This document shows, piece by piece, positions 9,326 through 64,000 of a stretch of 64,000 nucleotides of DNA. A program made the translations under genes and the position numbers. Position 1 is the stretch's first letter. Each line of letters starts with the position of its first letter. Source of the DNA: Minisyncoccota bacterium (GTDB lineage: Bacteria > Patescibacteriota > Minisyncoccia > Phycocordibacterales > SBAW01); assembly GCA_035546615.1 (NCBI GenBank), contig DASZWM010000006.1, forward strand, positions 144,417 through 208,416, read 5' to 3'. A model generated the notes under the pieces. The model did no database searches. It worked only from the letters and a program-made list of their open reading frames with translations, and was not told where the DNA came from.

Positions 9326-9396
9326 TCGGGCCGCCGGGAATTGAACCCGGTCTACATGCACCCCATGCATGTGTACTGCCGGTATACTACGGCCCG
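9326..9396 (-). tRNA. tRNA-Pro (anticodon GGG)
   Basis: Manual cloverleaf fold. Acceptor CGGGCCG/CGGCCCG; D-stem GTAT/GTAC; anticodon stem CATGC/GCATG with loop ATGGGGT (U33, GGG, G37); T-arm CCGGG-TTCAATT-CCCGG; discriminator A. CCA is not encoded. Confidence 0.8.
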
Positions 9397-10918: not shown

Positions 10919-10950
10919 CTATTGACCCTATTGACAAAAGTATGCTATCA
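10919..10950 (+). promoter_or_regulatory. Putative extended -10 promoter with tandem CCTATTGAC repeat
   Basis: CCTATTGAC occurs twice in tandem (TTGAC -35 boxes). The first TTGACC lies 18 nt from TATCAT, which carries an upstream TG. Confidence 0.4.
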
Positions 10951-11031
10951 TTATCTTATCTCCGGCGTCGAACCGGAGCTTTTGTTTTCTAGGTCCCTAA
11001 CCCGTTCCCGTGCCCCGTTCCCACGCCCCTT

Positions 11032-18651: not shown

Positions 18652-19986
18652 TTATTTTACCACAGAGAGCGCTTTGGTAAGCCGGGCCAGGGTTTTTTCA
18701 CGCCCAAGCAGGCCCGCGAGCGTAAACGGATCGGGCGATTTCTCCTTTCCTGAAAGCGCTACGCGCATGGGCCAGAGCGCGGCGCTCCTTCCGACTTCGG
18801 TCGCATACGGAAATACCGCTTCCTTGACCGCTTCGGCCGTGAACGATTCGTCGCCCATGCCTGAAAGCGTCTCGATGACCTTTTCCAAATGCTTAGAAAC
18901 GTCCGCGGCCTCAGCCTTCGCTCCCTGAAGCAATAATTCTTTCGTCGGGGCGGGTTCGGTATCAAGAAAATCAAACTCATTCTTGAGCATCTCCGCCGCC
19001 TCGCCAAGCGTCTGCGCCCGGTCCTTTATCAAAGGCGCCAAAGCCGGGATATCCCGCCCTCCGGCATATTCTGGACTTCGTAAGTCCAGATATTTCTTCA
19101 GTTGGTCGGCAAAGGCTTCGTTTGACAGGCGCTTCAAGTACTCCTGGTTGAACCATTTGAGCTTTACCTCGTCGAATATGCCGCTCCCCTTCTGGATGCG
19201 CTCGAGGCTGAATGCCTGCACTAGCTCGTCCACGCTGAATAGTTCCTGCTCCCCTTCCGGGTGCCAGCCCAGGAGCGCGAGATAGTTGATGAGCGCCTCC
19301 GGAAGGTATCCTTCGTCGCGATACTGGGTCAATGCTTTGGCGCCGCGGCGCTTGGAAAGCTTGGTGCGGTCCGGCCCGAGCACCAGCGGCAAGTGCGCGT
19401 AGGTCGGAATAGGCAGGCCGAGCGCCTGCATGATAAGTATCTGGCGCGGGGTGTTGGAGATATGGTCTTCGCCGCGCACGACGTGCGTCACGCCCTCGTC
19501 GGCATCATCCACCACGACCGCGAAGTGGAACACCGGCTCGGTCTCCGAGCGCGCAATGACAAAATCGCCTAGGTCGGTCGTGTCCACGGTTATAGGCCCG
19601 CGGATAACATCGGTAAAAGTGAGTGTCGTCTTCGGATTTCGAAAGCGTATGACCTCCGCACGCTGGCCGGGCTCCTTCGGCTCTTCTTTCGATACGTACG
19701 CGAGGTCCTTGGCGATAAGCTCTTTCAAAAGCGCCTGGTGGCGCGGCGCGTTCTCGCTCTGGCGGTAGAACTTGTCGTGCTTGAGGCCAAGCCACTGAAG
19801 CGTCTCCAGAATATTGTCCTCGTACTCCTTCTTGGAGCGCTCGCGGTCGGTGTCCTCGATGCGCACGATAAACTCGCCCCCGGTCTTCTTGGCGTACAGG
19901 TACGCAAATACTGCCGTGCGGTAATTGCCGCCGTGGAGCAAGCCCGTGGGACTGGGTGCGAACCGGGTTACGACCCTCTGTGTCAT
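18652..19986 (-). CDS. gltX: Glutamyl-tRNA synthetase
   Basis: RFAPSPTGLLHGGN (HIGH-type) and KLSKR (KMSKS-type). GluRS catalytic and anticodon-binding organisation. Confidence 0.85.
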   Translation of the reverse strand: MTQRVVTRFAPSPTGLLHGGNYRTAVFAYLYAKKTGGEFIVRIEDTDRERSKKEYEDNILETLQWLGLKHDKFYRQSENAPRHQALLKELIAKDLAYVSKEEPKEPGQRAEVIRFRNPKTTLTFTDVIRGPITVDTTDLGDFVIARSETEPVFHFAVVVDDADEGVTHVVRGEDHISNTPRQILIMQALGLPIPTYAHLPLVLGPDRTKLSKRRGAKALTQYRDEGYLPEALINYLALLGWHPEGEQELFSVDELVQAFSLERIQKGSGIFDEVKLKWFNQEYLKRLSNEAFADQLKKYLDLRSPEYAGGRDIPALAPLIKDRAQTLGEAAEMLKNEFDFLDTEPAPTKELLLQGAKAEAADVSKHLEKVIETLSGMGDESFTAEAVKEAVFPYATEVGRSAALWPMRVALSGKEKSPDPFTLAGLLGREKTLARLTKALSVVK

Positions 19987-20034
19987 ACGAAGATACTACC
20001 AAAAAAAGCCTTATATAGCTTGGCAGCTACTGTA

Positions 20035-20063
20035 TTGACAAGTATAGTATTTGGGTGTATAAT
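20035..20063 (+). promoter_or_regulatory. Consensus sigma70 promoter TTGACA-17-TATAAT with extended -10 (TGTATAAT)
   Basis: Exact consensus hexamers. Near-identical cassette repeated at 63767-63795. Confidence 0.6.
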
Positions 20064-20097
20064 AGTTAGGAACGGTTCCGAAACTAAACCCTCGAAT

Positions 20098-20403
20098 ATG
20101 GAGGCTGTCTTGAACGGCAAGATATATAAGGACTCTGCTGATTTCACAACGGCCATGAAGGCGGCCGCGTGGGAAACGCAAATGATCTGGCGCGGTGCAG
20201 GCAAGCGGCGCAAGTTCAATTCTGCGGCAACCGCCGCGATACAGTTGAATCTTACCGATAGCATCGCCGTGCGCGGACTCAACGAGGAGATCGTTAAGAG
20301 CCTCCGCGCTCTTGCGTTCGATGAGCCAGACAGCGTGACGACGGACGTGGAAGTCGGTCATGCTTGGGGCGCTTATTGCCAACGCGTTCAGCAGACTGCC
20401 TGA
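20098..20403 (+). CDS. Hypothetical small protein (101 aa)
   Basis: First ATG downstream of the consensus promoter. Weak Shine-Dalgarno. Followed by a terminator. Confidence 0.45.
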   Translation: MEAVLNGKIYKDSADFTTAMKAAAWETQMIWRGAGKRRKFNSAATAAIQLNLTDSIAVRGLNEEIVKSLRALAFDEPDSVTTDVEVGHAWGAYCQRVQQTA

Positions 20404-20414
20404 ACCAGTTCGAA

Positions 20415-20462
20415 CCCCGACAGTTGTTTGCTCACGCAAACGCTGCCGGGGCTTTCGTTTTT
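20415..20462. terminator. Structured hairpin terminator between convergent genes
   Basis: CCCCG...GTTTGC-tcac-GCAAAC...CGGGG followed by CTTTCGTTTTT. Confidence 0.55.
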
Positions 20463-20466
20463 ATAC

Positions 20467-59450: not shown

Positions 59451-62300
59451 TTAGTGCACCACGAAACTTATGACCTTACCAGGAACATACACCGCCTTTA
59501 CCTCCTTGCCAAGGGCGAGCCATTTAGCCACCCCGGCCTCGCCGCGGGCTGCCGCTAGAGCCTCTTCCTCCCCCGCCGAAGCGGGGATATCCACAGTGGC
59601 ACGCAGCTTCCCGTTCACTTGGACCGCAATTTTAGCGGTAGCGGAGACTATTTTTGCAGCATCGAATCGGGGCCACGGAATTTCATGTATCGCAGCGCTT
59701 TCGCCCATTCCCTCCCACAGCTCGGATGCAATGTGCGGCGCAAGCGGATACAGCATCTGCAAAAATATTTTGTATGCCTCTCGGGGAACCGAAGGAAGTT
59801 CGGCAAGCGCGTTGAGCAATATCATCAAGCTCGAAATGGCGGTATTCATTTTAAGCCCGTCGAGATCTTCCCCGACTTTCTTGATGGTCTGATGCAAAAG
59901 CGTCTCCGTCTTCGCATCAAGCGCCCCATCGCCTACCTCAAGCTTCCACACGCGCTCCAGGAACCGGCGCGTGCCGATGATATTCTGCGAACTCCACGGC
60001 TTGTGCGTTTCAAGCGGGCCCATGAACATCTCGTAGAGCCGCAACGTGTCGGCGCCGTACGTTTCCGTGATGTCCATCGGGTTTACCACGTTGCCGAACG
60101 ACTTGCTCATCTTGCGGCCGTCCTCCCCGCCGATAAGCCCCTGGTGCCGAAGCTTGAGGAACGGCTCAGTGAAATCAATAAGCCCATGCTTTTGAAGCGC
60201 TTTGGTGATGAAGCGCGAGTACAAGAGGTGCAGCACCGTATGCTCGGCGCCGCCGACGTACAAGTCTACCGGCAGCCACTTCTGTATAGCCTCAGGACTC
60301 GCAAACGCTGTTTCGTTATGCGGGTCGCCAAAACGGAAATAGTACCAAGAAGAACATACAAAAGTATCCATCGTGTCTATTTCGGGCTTCCAGCCTTTTC
60401 CGAATATCTTTTCCGTGCGCTCAAGCAATTCTTTCGACTGTCCGAGCGGCGAGGTGCCCTTGGGGCTGAACTCGACGTCGGTGGGCAGCATCCACGGCAG
60501 ATGTTCCTCCGGAATGGGATGCGGCTTGCCTTCCGGGTCATAGACCACGGGTATAGGCGCGCCCCAATACCGCTGGCGGGAAATAAGCCAGTCGCGCAGG
60601 CGGTAGGTCGTGACCCACTTGCCGCCGACGAAGTCGGTTATCTTCTTCTTGGCTTCTTCAGATTCAAGGCGAGTAAATTTGCCGGAGTTCGAGAGCGTAC
60701 CGTAACCGGTATAGATATCCTGCTCGCCCAAGAGCCAGCGCAGCGCATGCAAGTGCGTATCCGGGGTCAGGAACTTCTTAAGCTCGTCAGCGGTAAGCCA
60801 AAGCACTTCATGTATTGCCTGCTCGTTTTGGGCGACTTCCGCGCGCGCGTCGCTCTGGAGCTCCAGATATACGACGTGCGCGTGCGCGTTTCGATTGGTC
60901 TTCTTCGGCACATGGTAGAACTTCCCGTGCACGACGCCGAAATCCCGCACGAATTTAGCATCCGTATAGCCGACTTCTTCGGCAAGCTCGGCCTTGGCTG
61001 CCGTCTCGGGAGTCTGACCCGGCTCGATACCGCCGGTTATGAACGTGCCCCAGGCGACCTGCTTCCACTTGAGCGCGATATATTTGTCTTCCTGCCAATG
61101 CTTAACAATGGCGATTATCGCTTCGCGATGGTCGAACGGCTCGCCTTCGCGGATTTTCCCCGGTTCTGTCCCCTGCTCATAGGTCGGCTCAATAACTTCT
61201 TTGATCGGAATATTGAATTTCTTCGCGAACTGATAGTCGCGCTCGTCGTGGGCAGGCACGGCCATGATGGCTCCGGTGCCGTAGCCGCCCAGCACATAGT
61301 CGGCCACATATATCGGAATCTCTTCCTTGTTCGCGGGGTTGATAGCTTTCACTCCCTTCAGTTCTACGCCTGTCTTGTCCTTCTGTTCTTCCTGACGCTC
61401 CAAGTCAGTTTTATTCTTTGCAGCGGCAACGTATGTTTCCACTTCCTCTTTATTTTCCAGATTTTCCGCGAGGGACGCTACCAAAGCATGCTCCGGCGCC
61501 AGCACCAGATACGTCGCGCCGAACAAAGTATCCGGCCGAGTAGTGAATACCGTAATTCTGGACTTCGTAAGTCCAGATACTTCAAAATCTATCTCCGCGC
61601 CCTCAGAGCGGCCAATCCAGTTGCGCTGCGCTATCTTGGTAGACTCCGGCCAGTCGACCTGGTCAAGGTCGTTTGCAAGCGCGTCGGAGAATTCGGTGAT
61701 CTTGAAGAACCACTGCGCGAGATCCTTCTGGATGACCTTCGTGCCGCACCGCACGCACACGCCCTTTTCGCCCGTCTCGCTTACCGTCTGCTCGTTGGCG
61801 AGCACCGTCTGGTCCTTGGGGCACCAGTTCACCTTGGCCATGCGCTTTTCGGCCAGGCCATTGTTGTATAGAAAGAGGAAGAACCACTGCGTCCATTTGT
61901 AGTACTCGGGCGTGTGCGTGCCTATCTCGCGCGACCAGTCATATGAGAGGCCCAGGCTCTTTATCTGCGCGCGGAATGCGTTTATAGACTCTTCAGTCGT
62001 CTTAACGGGCGGAACGCCGGTCTTGATGGCGTAGTTCTCCGCCGGCAGGCCAAACGCGTCCCAGCCCATCGGGTGCAGCACGTTGAACCCCTGCATACGC
62101 TTGAAGCGGCTATAGATGTCGGTGGCGGTGTAGCCCTCGACATGGCCAACATGAAGTCCTGCGCCCGAAGGGTACGGGAACATATCGAGCACGTACAATT
62201 TTTCCTTTTTGGAGTCTTCGTCAGCCTTGAACGCCTGGGATTCTTCCCAGCGCTTCTGCCACTTCTTTTCTACAGCCTTGTGGTCGTACTTGCCAGCCAT
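59451..62300 (-). CDS. leuS: Leucyl-tRNA synthetase with inserted Nudix-like domain
   Basis: HVGH (HIGH-type), CP1 editing domain (TTRPDT), YRLRDW, KMSKS. ~150 extra residues sit between the CP1 end and YRLRDW. Confidence 0.9.
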   Translation of the reverse strand: MAGKYDHKAVEKKWQKRWEESQAFKADEDSKKEKLYVLDMFPYPSGAGLHVGHVEGYTATDIYSRFKRMQGFNVLHPMGWDAFGLPAENYAIKTGVPPVKTTEESINAFRAQIKSLGLSYDWSREIGTHTPEYYKWTQWFFLFLYNNGLAEKRMAKVNWCPKDQTVLANEQTVSETGEKGVCVRCGTKVIQKDLAQWFFKITEFSDALANDLDQVDWPESTKIAQRNWIGRSEGAEIDFEVSGLTKSRITVFTTRPDTLFGATYLVLAPEHALVASLAENLENKEEVETYVAAAKNKTDLERQEEQKDKTGVELKGVKAINPANKEEIPIYVADYVLGGYGTGAIMAVPAHDERDYQFAKKFNIPIKEVIEPTYEQGTEPGKIREGEPFDHREAIIAIVKHWQEDKYIALKWKQVAWGTFITGGIEPGQTPETAAKAELAEEVGYTDAKFVRDFGVVHGKFYHVPKKTNRNAHAHVVYLELQSDARAEVAQNEQAIHEVLWLTADELKKFLTPDTHLHALRWLLGEQDIYTGYGTLSNSGKFTRLESEEAKKKITDFVGGKWVTTYRLRDWLISRQRYWGAPIPVVYDPEGKPHPIPEEHLPWMLPTDVEFSPKGTSPLGQSKELLERTEKIFGKGWKPEIDTMDTFVCSSWYYFRFGDPHNETAFASPEAIQKWLPVDLYVGGAEHTVLHLLYSRFITKALQKHGLIDFTEPFLKLRHQGLIGGEDGRKMSKSFGNVVNPMDITETYGADTLRLYEMFMGPLETHKPWSSQNIIGTRRFLERVWKLEVGDGALDAKTETLLHQTIKKVGEDLDGLKMNTAISSLMILLNALAELPSVPREAYKIFLQMLYPLAPHIASELWEGMGESAAIHEIPWPRFDAAKIVSATAKIAVQVNGKLRATVDIPASAGEEEALAAARGEAGVAKWLALGKEVKAVYVPGKVISFVVH
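60729..61220 (-). other. Nudix-fold insertion within leuS
   Basis: GGIEPGQTPETAAKAELAEEVGY aligns to the Nudix box GX5EX7REUXEEXGU, with Glu->Gln and Arg->Ala substitutions. Confidence 0.6.
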
Positions 62301-62337: not shown

Positions 62338-62763
62338 CTACCGAACCGTGCCGAAGTATATTTGGTTAGTTTTCTGCGCATCAATGCAATGCTGGTCGCC
62401 CACAATGAGAGGACTCGGTAATGATTTTTGCGAATACCAACTCCATTTCTCACATGAACTATACTGCGTGACTATAGGTTCTCCGGACTTCCATTCTGCG
62501 ATAACCCCAATATCTAAATAATGTGAACCTTCCCAGCTAAGCACGTTCTGAAATGCAACGACTTTAGGATTTTGGATTTCGATGCCGGCTTCCTCACGGG
62601 CCTTACGTATAGCGCACTCCTCTAGTGACTCGCCGAACTGCAAGCGGCCACCGGGACCGGCATATTCTTGCTTCCCATCACCGCGGACGCGCTTACCGAA
62701 AAGGATTTCTCCGTTTTTGTATATAACTACTCCGACAACCACCTGCGGCTGCGGTTTCTCCAT
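62338..62763 (-). CDS. Nudix hydrolase
   Basis: Canonical Nudix box GPGGRLQFGESLEECAIRKAREEAGI. AT-richer than its neighbours. Confidence 0.8.
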   Translation of the reverse strand: MEKPQPQVVVGVVIYKNGEILFGKRVRGDGKQEYAGPGGRLQFGESLEECAIRKAREEAGIEIQNPKVVAFQNVLSWEGSHYLDIGVIAEWKSGEPIVTQYSSCEKWSWYSQKSLPSPLIVGDQHCIDAQKTNQIYFGTVR

Positions 62764-62765
62764 AT

Positions 62766-63728
62766 CTATTGCGCCGCCTTATTGAACGGCGGGAAGAAGT
62801 CCGGGTCTATCGAGCGCACGAAGCAGGTGCGGCCCGCGCCGTGGTCCCAATCCGCATCGCCTACTACTCCGTATGCGCGCGGAGCGGCCGTCGGGCGGGC
62901 GGATATGCCGGTGGCGACCGTATTCTCTTTGTTCGGCGCCGCGAATGTCGCGCATAGCTCAAAGCCGAGGTCCGCGTCTTTTATATATTCGTACTCCATG
63001 CCGGTTTCCGGGTCCTTAGGGATGTCGAAGTACAGCGTCGGGTCCTCAAGCTGGGCCAGCACGCTCGGAAGCATCTGCTTCTGCTGGTAGAAAGACAGCA
63101 CTTGCGACTGGATGTTCTGCAGGTCCTGCACGCGCTGGTTGTCGAGCCGCATCACGCGCGCTTCCCAAGGAGTTCCGATGATAAAGAAGCCTGCGGCAAT
63201 GGAAAGGACGATAAGTACAAGCACGCTCCACCCCACCGAGCGGGCGCGCGCCGGATATTTGACCCAGAAGCCCCAGATGTCGGCTAGGAAGTGCATGAAG
63301 CCGCCGCCCGCGACCAATAGCACCACAAGCACCTTCAGGATAAAGCGTACGGTAATGTCCTGGCCGGATAGGAAGTAGTAGATGAACGTGATGAGGTCGC
63401 CCGCGATAGTGAGCCCCGCGATGAAAACCGTCAGGTACAGCGCCCAGCGGCGCACCCACACGTCGCTGCGCGAAGGATCCTCGGCAATGTCGCGGCGTAT
63501 GGCGCGCATGAGTATCAGGAACGCCGGAAAGAGCACGATGAGCGATGCGATCTCAAACGAGACTGAGCCTTGGTACGGGTCCCACGTGTAATAGCTCAGC
63601 GCGTCCGGAAACGCGTAGTTGATGTAATCGATAAGGAGACGGATGAACGCGATGGCGCTGCCGTAAAGCATAAGCATGGCACCGGCCCACAAAAAGAAAT
63701 CCTTCGGCGTCGCTTTTGGTGTTTGCAT
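62766..63728 (-). CDS. Hypothetical polytopic membrane protein (320 aa)
   Basis: ~7 TM segments plus a C-terminal soluble domain. Confidence 0.5.
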   Translation of the reverse strand: MQTPKATPKDFFLWAGAMLMLYGSAIAFIRLLIDYINYAFPDALSYYTWDPYQGSVSFEIASLIVLFPAFLILMRAIRRDIAEDPSRSDVWVRRWALYLTVFIAGLTIAGDLITFIYYFLSGQDITVRFILKVLVVLLVAGGGFMHFLADIWGFWVKYPARARSVGWSVLVLIVLSIAAGFFIIGTPWEARVMRLDNQRVQDLQNIQSQVLSFYQQKQMLPSVLAQLEDPTLYFDIPKDPETGMEYEYIKDADLGFELCATFAAPNKENTVATGISARPTAAPRAYGVVGDADWDHGAGRTCFVRSIDPDFFPPFNKAAQ

Positions 63729-63766
63729 GGCTCAAGTATAAGCCCTTTTAGCGCTGTGGATATGGA

Positions 63767-63795
63767 TTGACAAATATATTATTTGGGTGTATAAT
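63767..63795 (+). promoter_or_regulatory. Consensus sigma70 promoter TTGACA-17-TGTATAAT (second copy of the cassette)
   Basis: 31 of 33 positions identical to the cassette at 20035. Confidence 0.6.
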
Positions 63796-63831
63796 AGATA
63801 CTGTGCTTAACGTTCATTGAGGAGGTTGACT

Positions 63832-64000
63832 ATGGCCGCACAGGTCATTGATTCCAATTCGACTTCGCACGCGGGAGAGAAGGAGCCTTCGGCCTTCGTC
63901 TACTACCTCTCATTGGCGGTGGCAGGCGGGGTGGGACTTTCGCTCGGCGCGTACGCGGTAGGTGTTCGCTTGATCGAGCTCGGCTTCGACAAGTGGCTCG
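63832..64000 (+). CDS. Hypothetical membrane protein (5' partial, continues past the window)
   Basis: GAGGAGG Shine-Dalgarno 7 nt upstream. Hydrophobic. Confidence 0.5.
   Translation, partial: MAAQVIDSNSTSHAGEKEPSAFVYYLSLAVAGGVGLSLGAYAVGVRLIELGFDKWL

What the first reader, a model, noticed from the sequence alone, without database searches (positions are those of the whole stretch)
20035..20063. Duplicated 33-bp consensus promoter cassette (second copy at 63767-63795)
TTGACAAGTATAGTATTTGGGTGTATAATAG at 20035 and TTGACAAATATATTATTTGGGTGTATAATAG at 63767 are identical at 31 of 33 positions. This includes 15 of 17 spacer positions and an extended -10 TGTATAAT. Spacer conservation well beyond the hexamers suggests either recent duplication of a regulatory cassette or a shared operator/UP-like element recognised by a common regulator. 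Both copies drive small unrelated plus-strand genes divergent from minus-strand genes. Exact E. coli-consensus promoters are also notable in a 60% GC genome.
Basis: seen in the sequence. Interest (0 to 1): 0.5.

Follow-up and report, generated by a model that had tools for sequence, protein, structure and literature searches.

The report
Two near-identical full-consensus promoters
Two 35-38 bp stretches 44 kb apart in this Paceibacterota (candidate phyla radiation, CPR) genome are almost identical textbook housekeeping promoters, each in front of a tiny orphan gene, and the same promoter design recurs in over 100 other genomes and many phages, so it is a favoured strong-promoter form rather than a private oddity.

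Summary
Shuffled sequence gives no such pair. They are the only two perfect TTGACA-N17-TATAAT sites in the window. Both lie in 37-38% GC divergent intergenic regions. Each points at a small orphan gene: a 101-aa weakly HTH-like protein and a 62-aa single-helix membrane protein.

The flanks of the two copies are not significantly similar. There are no mobile-element ends, no Rfam family and no dyad symmetry.

The 3' half with the -35 (TTGACA-N8-ATTTGGGTGTATAAT) is not private. It occurs at 112 places in species-representative genomes, about 60% labelled Patescibacteria and 26% Clostridia-type. It also occurs in 58 viral contigs, against 0, 1 and 0 for three shuffled-spacer controls. It is tied to 17-bp spacing.

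Copies within one genome share more of the variable spacer half than copies from different genomes (p = 7e-5). Related genomes (L175, L034) share extra flank with one copy each.

Best reading: a lineage-favoured, all-consensus housekeeping-sigma promoter module, re-used in front of fast-evolving small genes. The "extended -10" label is off by one base. A shared operator has no support. Modest interest.

The parts
20031..20068 (+). Cassette copy 1: whole conserved block TGTATTGACAAGTATAGTATTTGGGTGTATAATAGTTA
   Evidence: the repeat finder family D10, 38 nt at 89% identity. Identity counts.
20035..20040 (+). Copy 1 -35 hexamer TTGACA
20041..20057 (+). Copy 1 17-nt spacer AGTATAGTATTTGGGTG. Its 3' 9 nt, ATTTGGGTG, is the widely recurrent module.
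20058..20063 (+). Copy 1 -10 hexamer TATAAT. TG lies at -14/-13, so this is not a canonical TGn extended -10. The transcription start is inferred near 20068-20070.
   Evidence: 12/12 hexamer matches, no TG before the second hexamer. The start site is an inference.
20020..20048 (+). Overlapping second promoter-like site TTGGCA-N17-TATAGT, 15 bp upstream. It has no equivalent at copy 2.
   Evidence: 10/12
20098..20403 (+). Gene driven by copy 1: a 101-aa orphan (NCBI hypothetical VHD55_03600) with weak HTH-type hits and no Shine-Dalgarno sequence. It lies antisense inside the conserved murG-gltX junction.
   Evidence: only itself among 5.8e9 proteins; Pfam E 0.0018, below cutoff; PHROG HTH, E 3.5e-4; GC by codon position 0.58/0.47/0.67; junction.
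18652..19986 (-). gltX, the divergent neighbour of copy 1. Only 48 nt separate its ATG from the cassette -35.
63763..63800 (+). Cassette copy 2: TGGATTGACAAATATATTATTTGGGTGTATAATAGATA, with -35 at 63767-63772, spacer at 63773-63789 and -10 at 63790-63795
   Evidence: The same sequence appears in the independent Logan assembly L258.
63820..63826 (+). Shine-Dalgarno GAGGAGG of the copy-2 gene, 5 nt before the ATG
   Evidence: read directly from the sequence
63832..64000 (+). Gene driven by copy 2: a 62-aa orphan with one predicted membrane helix. It is cut by the window end; the full ORF would end at about 64020.
   Evidence: P0002, L258. No Pfam, PHROG or PADLOC hit.
62766..63728 (-). DUF5671 membrane protein, the divergent neighbour of copy 2 and first gene of the DUF5671-NUDIX-leuS run. 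38 nt separate its ATG from the cassette -35.

Best explanation
Each copy is a strong promoter for the housekeeping sigma factor: a perfect -35 TTGACA, the optimal 17-bp spacer and a perfect -10 TATAAT. Each transcribes a small orphan gene away from a minus-strand operon.

The two copies are alike beyond the hexamers for two reasons.

(a) Both belong to a widespread class of all-consensus promoters whose -10-proximal spacer reads ATTTGGGTG (-21 to -13). That class is common in Patescibacteria. It also occurs in Clostridia-type genomes and in many phage promoter families. I infer that RNA polymerase holoenzyme itself favours it, through spacer geometry or contacts upstream of the -10, rather than a separate regulator.

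(b) Within this high-GC Paceibacterota lineage the remaining spacer half (A[A/G]TATA[G/T]T) and a few flanking bases are also shared. This probably reflects re-use by copying or recombination of one promoter module in front of newly arisen or inserted, fast-evolving small genes.

Shown: the sequence features, their position and orientation, the recurrence elsewhere, and the lock to 17-bp spacing. Inferred: transcription from these sites, the role of the spacer in strength, and copying as the origin of the pair.
For: Promoter anatomy and placement:
- Both copies match the hexamers 12/12 at 17-bp spacing and are the only such sites in the window.
- They lie in 37-38% GC intergenic DNA within a 58% GC window.
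- They point at ORFs 35 and 37 nt downstream of the -10. The second ORF has a GAGGAGG Shine-Dalgarno sequence.

Membership of a wider class:
- TTGACA-N8-ATTTGGGTGTATAAT has 112 genomic hits. By record title, 67 are Patescibacteria-type and 29 Clostridia-type.
- The genes downstream of those hits are diverse.
- Viral contigs give 58 hits in at least 12 distinct families, against 0, 1 and 0 for three composition-matched shuffles of the 9-mer that keep the terminal TG.
- 16-bp spacing gives 6 hits and 18-bp spacing gives 0.
- Of 88 distinct contexts of the bare 15-mer, 18 have a perfect -35 at 17 bp. Chance would give 0.02.

Perfect consensus promoters are otherwise rare in relatives. There are 2 in 682 kb, and one of them reads CATTTGGTTT at the same place.

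Lineage-level re-use:
- Within-genome pairs share 4.7 of the 8 variable spacer bases, against 2.9 for between-genome pairs (p = 7e-5).
- L066 carries copy 2's exact 29-mer, and L034 carries copy 1's with one change.
- L175, a relative chosen through gltX, has TTGACAAATATGTAGTTTGGGTGTACACT before an 83-aa ORF.
- Copy 1's upstream flank matches L175's (p = 0.0025). Copy 2's leader matches L034's (p = 0.0005).

Copy 1 with its orphan gene occupies a junction that is 150 nt or shorter in most relatives.

No Rfam family lies in either region.
Against: - There are no transcript data, so promoter activity and start sites are predictions.
- Copy 1's ORF has no Shine-Dalgarno sequence, weaker codon-position GC bias than the neighbouring genes and no homologues. 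The transcript could therefore be non-coding, or antisense to murG. No terminator is predicted.
- No RNA polymerase contact known to me explains G-17 G-16 G-15 T-14 G-13, and the canonical TGn is absent.
- GGTG is not a dominant 4-mer before TATAAT in CPR DNA generally, so this is a subclass and not the CPR consensus.
- The background rate of consensus promoters in Patescibacteria is estimated from under 1 Mb, and the shuffled-spacer controls could be run only on the viral collection.
- Within-genome similarity fits copying, but it would also fit lineage-specific selection.
Confidence: 0.65

Rival explanations
1. A private, recent intragenomic duplication: one promoter was copied to a second locus by illegitimate or short-homology recombination. 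The spacer identity is then simply shared ancestry with no functional meaning.
For: - Identity is 34/38, including 6/8 of the variable spacer half.
- Other CPR genomes hold pairs with identical 29-mers: L014/L018 and L003/L033.
- Within-genome pairs are more alike than between-genome pairs (p = 7e-5).
- A second short repeat, 28/29 identical, also links the gltX and leuS neighbourhoods. This hints at exchange between the two loci.
Against: - The flanks of the two copies are not similar (p = 0.19 and 0.12).
- The block ends just outside the hexamers, which is where selection on a promoter would end it.
- The 3' 15-mer plus -35 is shared with over 100 unrelated genomes and with phages.
- Copy 2's exact 29-mer sits in another genome (L066) before an unrelated gene.
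- The best 50-nt identity is 74%, below the threshold used to define propagated promoters.
Confidence: 0.2
2. The conserved spacer is an operator. A DNA-binding protein, possibly the weakly HTH-like 101-aa product of the copy-1 gene, binds between the hexamers of both promoters and co-regulates the two small genes.
For: - The spacer is conserved at 15/17 positions.
- The copy-1 product has weak HTH-type hits (Pfam NUMOD-like E 0.0018; PHROG 4629 E 3.5e-4).
- Phage repressors classically bind within promoter spacers (my own knowledge).
Against: - The cassette has no dyad or direct-repeat symmetry typical of HTH operators (read directly from the sequence).
- TTTGGGTG outside promoters occurs at near-random frequency (32 and 36 observed against 24 and 21 expected).
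- The motif is phase-locked to a perfect -35 at 17 bp.
- The putative regulator is an orphan with no homologue in 5.8e9 proteins, yet the motif occurs in over 100 other genomes.
Confidence: 0.07
3. The cassettes are the promoters of moron-like or mobile gene cassettes of phage origin (promoter plus small ORF) that landed at two places in the genome.
For: - Copy 1 plus its orphan lies antisense within the otherwise tight mraY-ftsW-murG-gltX run. The gap is 150 nt or shorter in about 45 of about 70 relatives.
- Other relatives carry different small antisense ORFs with consensus promoters at the same junction: L230, L239, L238 and L224.
- The motif is abundant in phage contigs, some with three identical copies.
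- The copy-1 product has a PHROG HTH hit.
Against: - There are no integrase, attachment-site repeats, inverted repeats or target duplications.
- No terminator is predicted.
- The GC content of the ORFs (about 57%) matches the host, not the 29-47% GC phage contigs.
- The two ORFs share nothing, and neither has a homologue in phage or defence libraries above threshold.
Confidence: 0.08

Closest known systems
Bacterial housekeeping (sigma-70 / sigma-A) consensus promoters: TTGACA-17 bp-TATAAT
   Same: Both hexamers are perfect, the spacing is the optimal 17 bp, the sites are intergenic, and they point towards a downstream ORF.
   Different: Natural promoters rarely match all 12 positions. Here two do so within 64 kb and also share 15/17 spacer bases. 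The shared spacer module ATTTGGGTG is not a described promoter element as far as I could find.
Extended -10 (TGn) and Gram-positive '-16 region' (TRTGn) promoters
   Same: There is a G/T-rich, TG-containing stretch directly upstream of the -10. It is preceded by a T-run and is enriched in Firmicutes-type and CPR genomes.
   Different: The register is shifted by one base, with TG at -14/-13 instead of -15/-14. The recurrent unit is 9 nt long and includes GGG at -17 to -15. Those bases are not part of the described element.
Phage early-promoter families (multiple near-identical strong host-polymerase promoters in one genome, such as the early promoters of T5, T7 and SPO1; from my own knowledge)
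   Same: Within a genome there are near-identical copies that span the spacer and sit in front of unrelated small genes. IMG/VR contigs L125, L134, L145 and L150 carry 2-3 copies of TTGACATTAAATGGATTTGGGTGTATAAT plus a leader, 262-298 bp apart.
   Different: The window copies are 44 kb apart among core cellular genes (gltX, murG, leuS). They share no leader, and no phage genes are nearby.
Putative mobile promoters ('promoter propagation', Matus-Garcia et al. 2012, PMC3488235)
   Same: Homologous upstream sequence lies before non-homologous coding sequences in one genome, as a two-member family. That was the commonest family size in the study.
   Different: The definition requires at least 80% identity over 50-100 nt. 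This pair reaches 74% over its best 50 nt, and the conserved block is only 35-38 nt.
Morons (autonomous promoter-ORF-terminator units inserted in prophages; from my own knowledge)
   Same: A strong promoter plus a small orphan ORF sits as a lineage-specific insert between conserved genes.
   Different: There is no prophage context and no predicted terminator.

Membership tests
Sigma-70/sigma-A housekeeping promoter | -35 hexamer close to TTGACA and -10 hexamer close to TATAAT, with A at position 2 and T at position 6 of the -10 | tested here: met
   12/12 hexamer matches in both copies
Sigma-70/sigma-A housekeeping promoter | Spacer of 17 +/- 1 bp | tested here: met
   The spacer is 17 bp in both copies. 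In viral contigs the module occurs 58 times at 17 bp, 6 times at 16 bp and 0 times at 18 bp.
Sigma-70/sigma-A housekeeping promoter | Lies upstream of a gene and points towards it, in non-coding DNA | tested here: met
   Both are in AT-rich divergent intergenic regions. The ORFs start 35 and 37 nt after the -10.
Sigma-70/sigma-A housekeeping promoter | A primary transcript 5' end 6-8 nt downstream of the -10 | not testable with these tools
   No RNA data are available for this organism.
Extended -10 (TGn) promoter | T at -15 and G at -14, one base upstream of the -10 hexamer | tested here: not met
   The sequence is GGGTG|TATAAT, so TG is at -14/-13. The scan reports no TG before the second hexamer.
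UP element | A/T-rich tract at about -40 to -60, conserved between copies | tested here: not met
   The 48-nt upstream flanks of the two copies are not significantly similar (p = 0.19). Only copy 1 has an A7 run, and it lies further upstream.
Putative mobile promoter (PMP) | At least 80% identity over 50-100 nt between upstream regions in one genome | tested here: not met
   The best 50-nt ungapped window is 37/50 = 74%.
Putative mobile promoter (PMP) | The downstream coding sequences are not homologous | tested here: met
   P0001 (101 aa, soluble) and P0002 (62 aa, one membrane helix) show no similarity to each other, and each has no homologue.
Transcription-factor operator | Dyad or direct-repeat symmetry, and occurrence independent of promoter phase | tested here: not met
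   There is no symmetry in the 38-mer. TTTGGGTG away from TATAAT occurs at near-random frequency. The 15-mer is coupled to a perfect -35 at exactly 17 bp.
MITE / IS end / REP-type repeat | A repeat longer than the promoter, with terminal inverted repeats or target duplications, in many copies | tested here: not met
   There are only two copies in 64 kb, the block is 38 nt, and the flanks are unrelated.
Known RNA family (riboswitch, leader or sRNA) downstream | A match to an Rfam covariance model | tested here: not met
   The only Rfam hit in the window is tRNA-Pro at 9326-9396.

The most novel reading that the evidence does not exclude
ATTTGGGTG at -21 to -13 is a previously undescribed core-promoter element. 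It would be recognised by housekeeping RNA polymerase holoenzyme, through sigma region 3 or the beta-prime zipper or through spacer shape. Together with perfect hexamers it would give near-maximal strength. It would have been selected convergently in Patescibacteria, Clostridia and many phages. In this Paceibacterota lineage the whole 35-38 bp unit would act as a portable promoter that is repeatedly recruited to express newly born small proteins.
Probability: 0.2. Interest if true: 0.55.

Novelty: new member of a known kind. Interest (0 to 1): 0.3.

Why it matters
Almost nothing is known experimentally about promoters in the candidate phyla radiation. A compact 29-38 bp sequence that is very probably a strong constitutive promoter, and that recurs across many Patescibacteria, would be a practical part for the emerging genetics of these organisms. 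It would also be a useful landmark for annotating their highly expressed small orphan genes. If the recurrent spacer module proves to add strength by itself, it would extend the list of core-promoter elements. If not, this is simply a nice example of two optimal promoters, and it is ordinary.

Tried and rejected
Fetching the source genome. Exact-protein look-ups for GltX, the DUF5671 protein and the 101-aa ORF found nothing. Only the 62-aa ORF led to a 934-nt contig. A genome-wide count in the source organism was therefore not possible.

Conservation at the orthologous locus. None of 80 gltX loci has the cassette upstream of gltX. The nearest available relatives share only 69-82% GltX identity.

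Is GGTG before TATAAT a general CPR feature? No. It occurs at 5 of 385 TATAAT sites and is not the top 4-mer. A position weight matrix from 56 other near-consensus sites shows only mild preferences: T at -20 to -18, G at -16 and G at -13.

Literature. Searches for Patescibacteria promoters or transcription start sites, and for the literal motif, returned nothing relevant.

Identifying the large phage family that uses the motif. There were only weak hits, to Sinorhizobium and Agrobacterium T4-like phages. BLAST of the 31-mer against GenBank phages gave 87% matches in Staphylococcus Kayvirus-type phages. One IMG/VR hit (L116) has the same length as phage phiSA_BS2.

A minus-strand partner promoter for gltX or the DUF5671 gene. 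TTGTCA, the reverse complement of TGACAA, is a possible back-to-back -35. The matching -10 candidates (TATATA, TAAAAG) are weak, so I did not pursue this.

Chance was rejected by shuffles.

Assembly artefact or vector contamination was rejected. An independent Logan assembly reproduces copy 2 with its native flanks.

Full report
**The observation**

- The two sequences are at the stated coordinates.
The -35-to-(-10) 29-mers match at 27/29, and the 17-nt spacers at 15/17.
- The longest ungapped block is 20031-20068 vs 63763-63800, at 34/38.
- Dinucleotide-preserving shuffles never produce a match to the 31-mer at up to 3 mismatches.
- These are the only perfect TTGACA-N17-TATAAT sites in the window. 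Ten sites have up to 2 hexamer mismatches, against 1.8 expected.
- The 48-nt flanks on either side of the two copies are not significantly alike (p = 0.19 and 0.12; alignment A1).

**Context**

- The window comes from a roughly 58% GC member of the candidate phyla radiation (CPR). It carries a DUF5671 protein, a DUF378 protein and an mraY-ftsW-murG-gltX run.
- The copy-1 ORF is identical to NCBI hypothetical protein VHD55_03600 of a Candidatus Paceibacterota MAG.
- Both cassettes lie in 37-38% GC divergent intergenic regions.
- Copy 1 points at ORF 20098-20403, which encodes 101 aa.
  - The ORF has no Shine-Dalgarno sequence.
  - Its codon-position GC is 0.58/0.47/0.67. That fits coding, but less clearly than the neighbouring genes.
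  - It has no homologue other than itself among 5.8e9 proteins.
  - It has weak HTH-type hits.
- Copy 2 points at an ORF starting at 63832, preceded by GAGGAGG.
  - An independent 934-nt assembly (L258) is identical over the region and shows a 62-aa protein with one hydrophobic helix. This protein is also an orphan.
- No Rfam family lies in either region. No terminator-like site was found.

**Is it a private duplication?**

I scanned one genome per species for TTGACA-N8-ATTTGGGTGTATAAT. That is the -35, eight free bases, the shared 3' spacer half and the -10.

- The scan gave 112 places.
- By record title, 67 are Patescibacteria-type, 29 are Clostridia/Eubacteriales-type and 3 are Anaerolineae. 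The rest are mixed or unclassified.
- The free 8 bases vary between hits. A is preferred at the first two positions (0.73, 0.74).
- The downstream genes are diverse: argininosuccinate synthase, a type III glutamine synthetase-like protein, HrcA, DnaB and many hypotheticals.
- In the CPR hits the downstream ORFs, called crudely, are short. The median is 145 aa, 17 of 60 are 100 aa or shorter, and 15 of 60 have an N-terminal hydrophobic segment. The median in the Firmicutes-type hits is 282 aa.

**Is the recurrence more than chance?**

- An unbiased sample of 80 relatives, chosen through GltX (682 kb), contains only 2 perfect consensus promoters. One of them reads CATTTGGTTT at the corresponding place.
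- In viral contigs the real pattern occurs in 58 stretches, which fall into at least 12 distinct sequence families.
- Three composition-matched shuffles of the 9-mer, all keeping the terminal TG, gave 0, 1 and 0 stretches.
- Moving the module to a 16-bp spacer gives 6 hits, and to an 18-bp spacer gives 0.
- Among 88 distinct contexts of the bare 15-mer in a truncated scan, 18 have a perfect TTGACA exactly 17 bp upstream of the -10. Three more have one mismatch. The rest look random.
- The 8-mer TTTGGGTG away from TATAAT occurs at about background frequency, and in coding-like contexts.
- ATTTGGGTG therefore behaves as part of an all-consensus promoter, not as a free-standing binding site.
- GGTG is not the commonest 4-mer before TATAAT in CPR DNA. 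This is a subclass of promoters, not the phylum-wide consensus.

**Evidence for copying or lineage-specific constraint**

- Eight genomes in the scan hold two or three hits.
- Within-genome pairs share 4.7 of the 8 free spacer bases. Between-genome pairs share 2.9 (permutation p = 7e-5). Two within-genome pairs are identical over all 29 nt.
- The window pair shares 6/8, which has a background probability of 0.03.
- High-GC relatives carry very similar cassettes.
  - L066 has copy 2's exact 29-mer before an unrelated 205-aa gene.
  - L034 has copy 1's 29-mer with one change, before a 31-aa hydrophobic ORF.
  - L175 was fetched only because of gltX. It has TTGACAAATATGTAGTTTGGGTGTACACT before an 83-aa ORF, divergent from murG.
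- Copy 1's upstream flank resembles L175's (p = 0.0025). Copy 2's leader resembles L034's (p = 0.0005). The two window copies do not resemble each other in either flank.
- This mosaic pattern suggests a promoter, or promoter-plus-leader, module that is shuffled in front of changing small genes.

**The copy-1 locus**

- murG is followed directly by gltX in most relatives. The gap is 150 nt or less in about 45 of about 70 loci.
- In the window the gap is 480 nt. It holds the cassette and the orphan ORF on the opposite strand.
- Other relatives have different small genes at this junction. Several are antisense with perfect or near-perfect consensus promoters: L230, L239, L238 and L224.
- The junction is therefore a recurrent landing place for small, strongly promoted genes.

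**Comparison with known elements**

- The hexamers and their spacing meet every sequence criterion for a sigma-70/sigma-A promoter.
- The canonical extended -10 is not present. TG lies at -14/-13.
- The pair fails the published criterion for "putative mobile promoters", which is at least 80% identity over 50-100 nt. Here the best 50 nt reach 74%.
- There is no dyad symmetry. The repeat does not extend beyond the 38-nt block, it has no terminal inverted repeats, and it has only two copies in the window.
- Phage early-promoter families are the closest analogy for near-identical promoters within one genome. Some IMG/VR contigs carry three identical copies with leaders, 262-298 bp apart.
- I found no paper describing the motif or CPR promoters in the library searched.

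**Verdict**

- The finding is real, and it is a pair of very probable strong housekeeping promoters.
- The spacer identity is best explained in two parts. First, both copies belong to a widespread, apparently polymerase-favoured all-consensus promoter form. Second, there is lineage-level re-use of the module.
- A purely private recent duplication, a shared operator and a mobile element are each less likely.
- The mechanism by which ATTTGGGTG would help RNA polymerase is inferred, not shown.
- Interest is modest. This is a known kind of element, with a possibly new and testable spacer module, and with practical value for CPR genetics.

Noticed in passing
window 19068-19096 and 61555-61583: A 29-nt repeat, 28/29 identical, containing a perfect palindrome (CTGGACTT-CGT-AAGTCCAG). 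It lies inside the coding sequences of gltX and leuS and is read in different frames (KYLDLRSPEY vs EVSGLTKSRI). Shuffles give 0 matches. It is absent from all fetched loci, including 80 gltX orthologues, and from viral contigs. Like the promoter pair, it links the gltX and leuS neighbourhoods, but at a different offset (42487 vs 43732). It is unexplained.
   Followed up: partly
window 59451-62300 (-): The leucyl-tRNA synthetase (949 aa) carries an embedded NUDIX domain (Pfam PF00293, residues 416-522, E 1.9e-12) right after a shortened editing domain. A separate NUDIX gene lies next door at 62338-62763.
   Followed up: partly
window 19987-20466; loci L230, L239, L238, L224, L226, L249, L175: The murG-gltX junction is tight in most relatives but is a recurrent insertion site. 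Different lineages hold different small genes there, several of them antisense with perfect or near-perfect consensus promoters. Others hold an ArsR-like gene or a roughly 168-aa membrane protein.
   Followed up: partly
window 10931-10990 (+): A promoter-like site (TTGACA-N17-TCTTAT) is followed immediately by a hairpin, CTCCGG-cgtcgaa-CCGGAG, and then TTTTGTTTT. A promoter therefore directly abuts a terminator-like site upstream of the gene at about 10993.
   Followed up: no
window 20020-20048 (+): A second promoter-like site, TTGGCA-N17-TATAGT, overlaps copy 1 and is shifted 15 bp upstream. Its -10 is formed by the variable half of the cassette spacer. Copy 2 has no equivalent.
   Followed up: no
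window about 12.6-14.4 kb and 27-30 kb: Two low-GC islands (0.42-0.49, against 0.58 for the window). The first holds a 352-aa protein. The second holds an alpha/beta-hydrolase-like gene, an FAD amine-oxidase-like gene and a 124-aa ORF. These labels are my reading of the ORF translations; no family search was run on them. They may be horizontally acquired.
   Followed up: no
L125, L134, L145, L150 (IMG/VR contigs): Phage contigs with two or three identical copies of TTGACATTAAATGGATTTGGGTGTATAAT plus a conserved leader, 262-298 bp apart, each before a different small ORF. They belong to a large uncultured phage family with only weak similarity to Sinorhizobium and Agrobacterium T4-like phages.
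   Followed up: partly
L175 568-596 (-): A relative's version of the cassette with a degraded -10 (TACACT) but an intact -35 and spacer. It is divergent from murG and drives an 83-aa ORF with a GAGGAGG Shine-Dalgarno sequence. Its upstream flank resembles that of window copy 1.
   Followed up: partly
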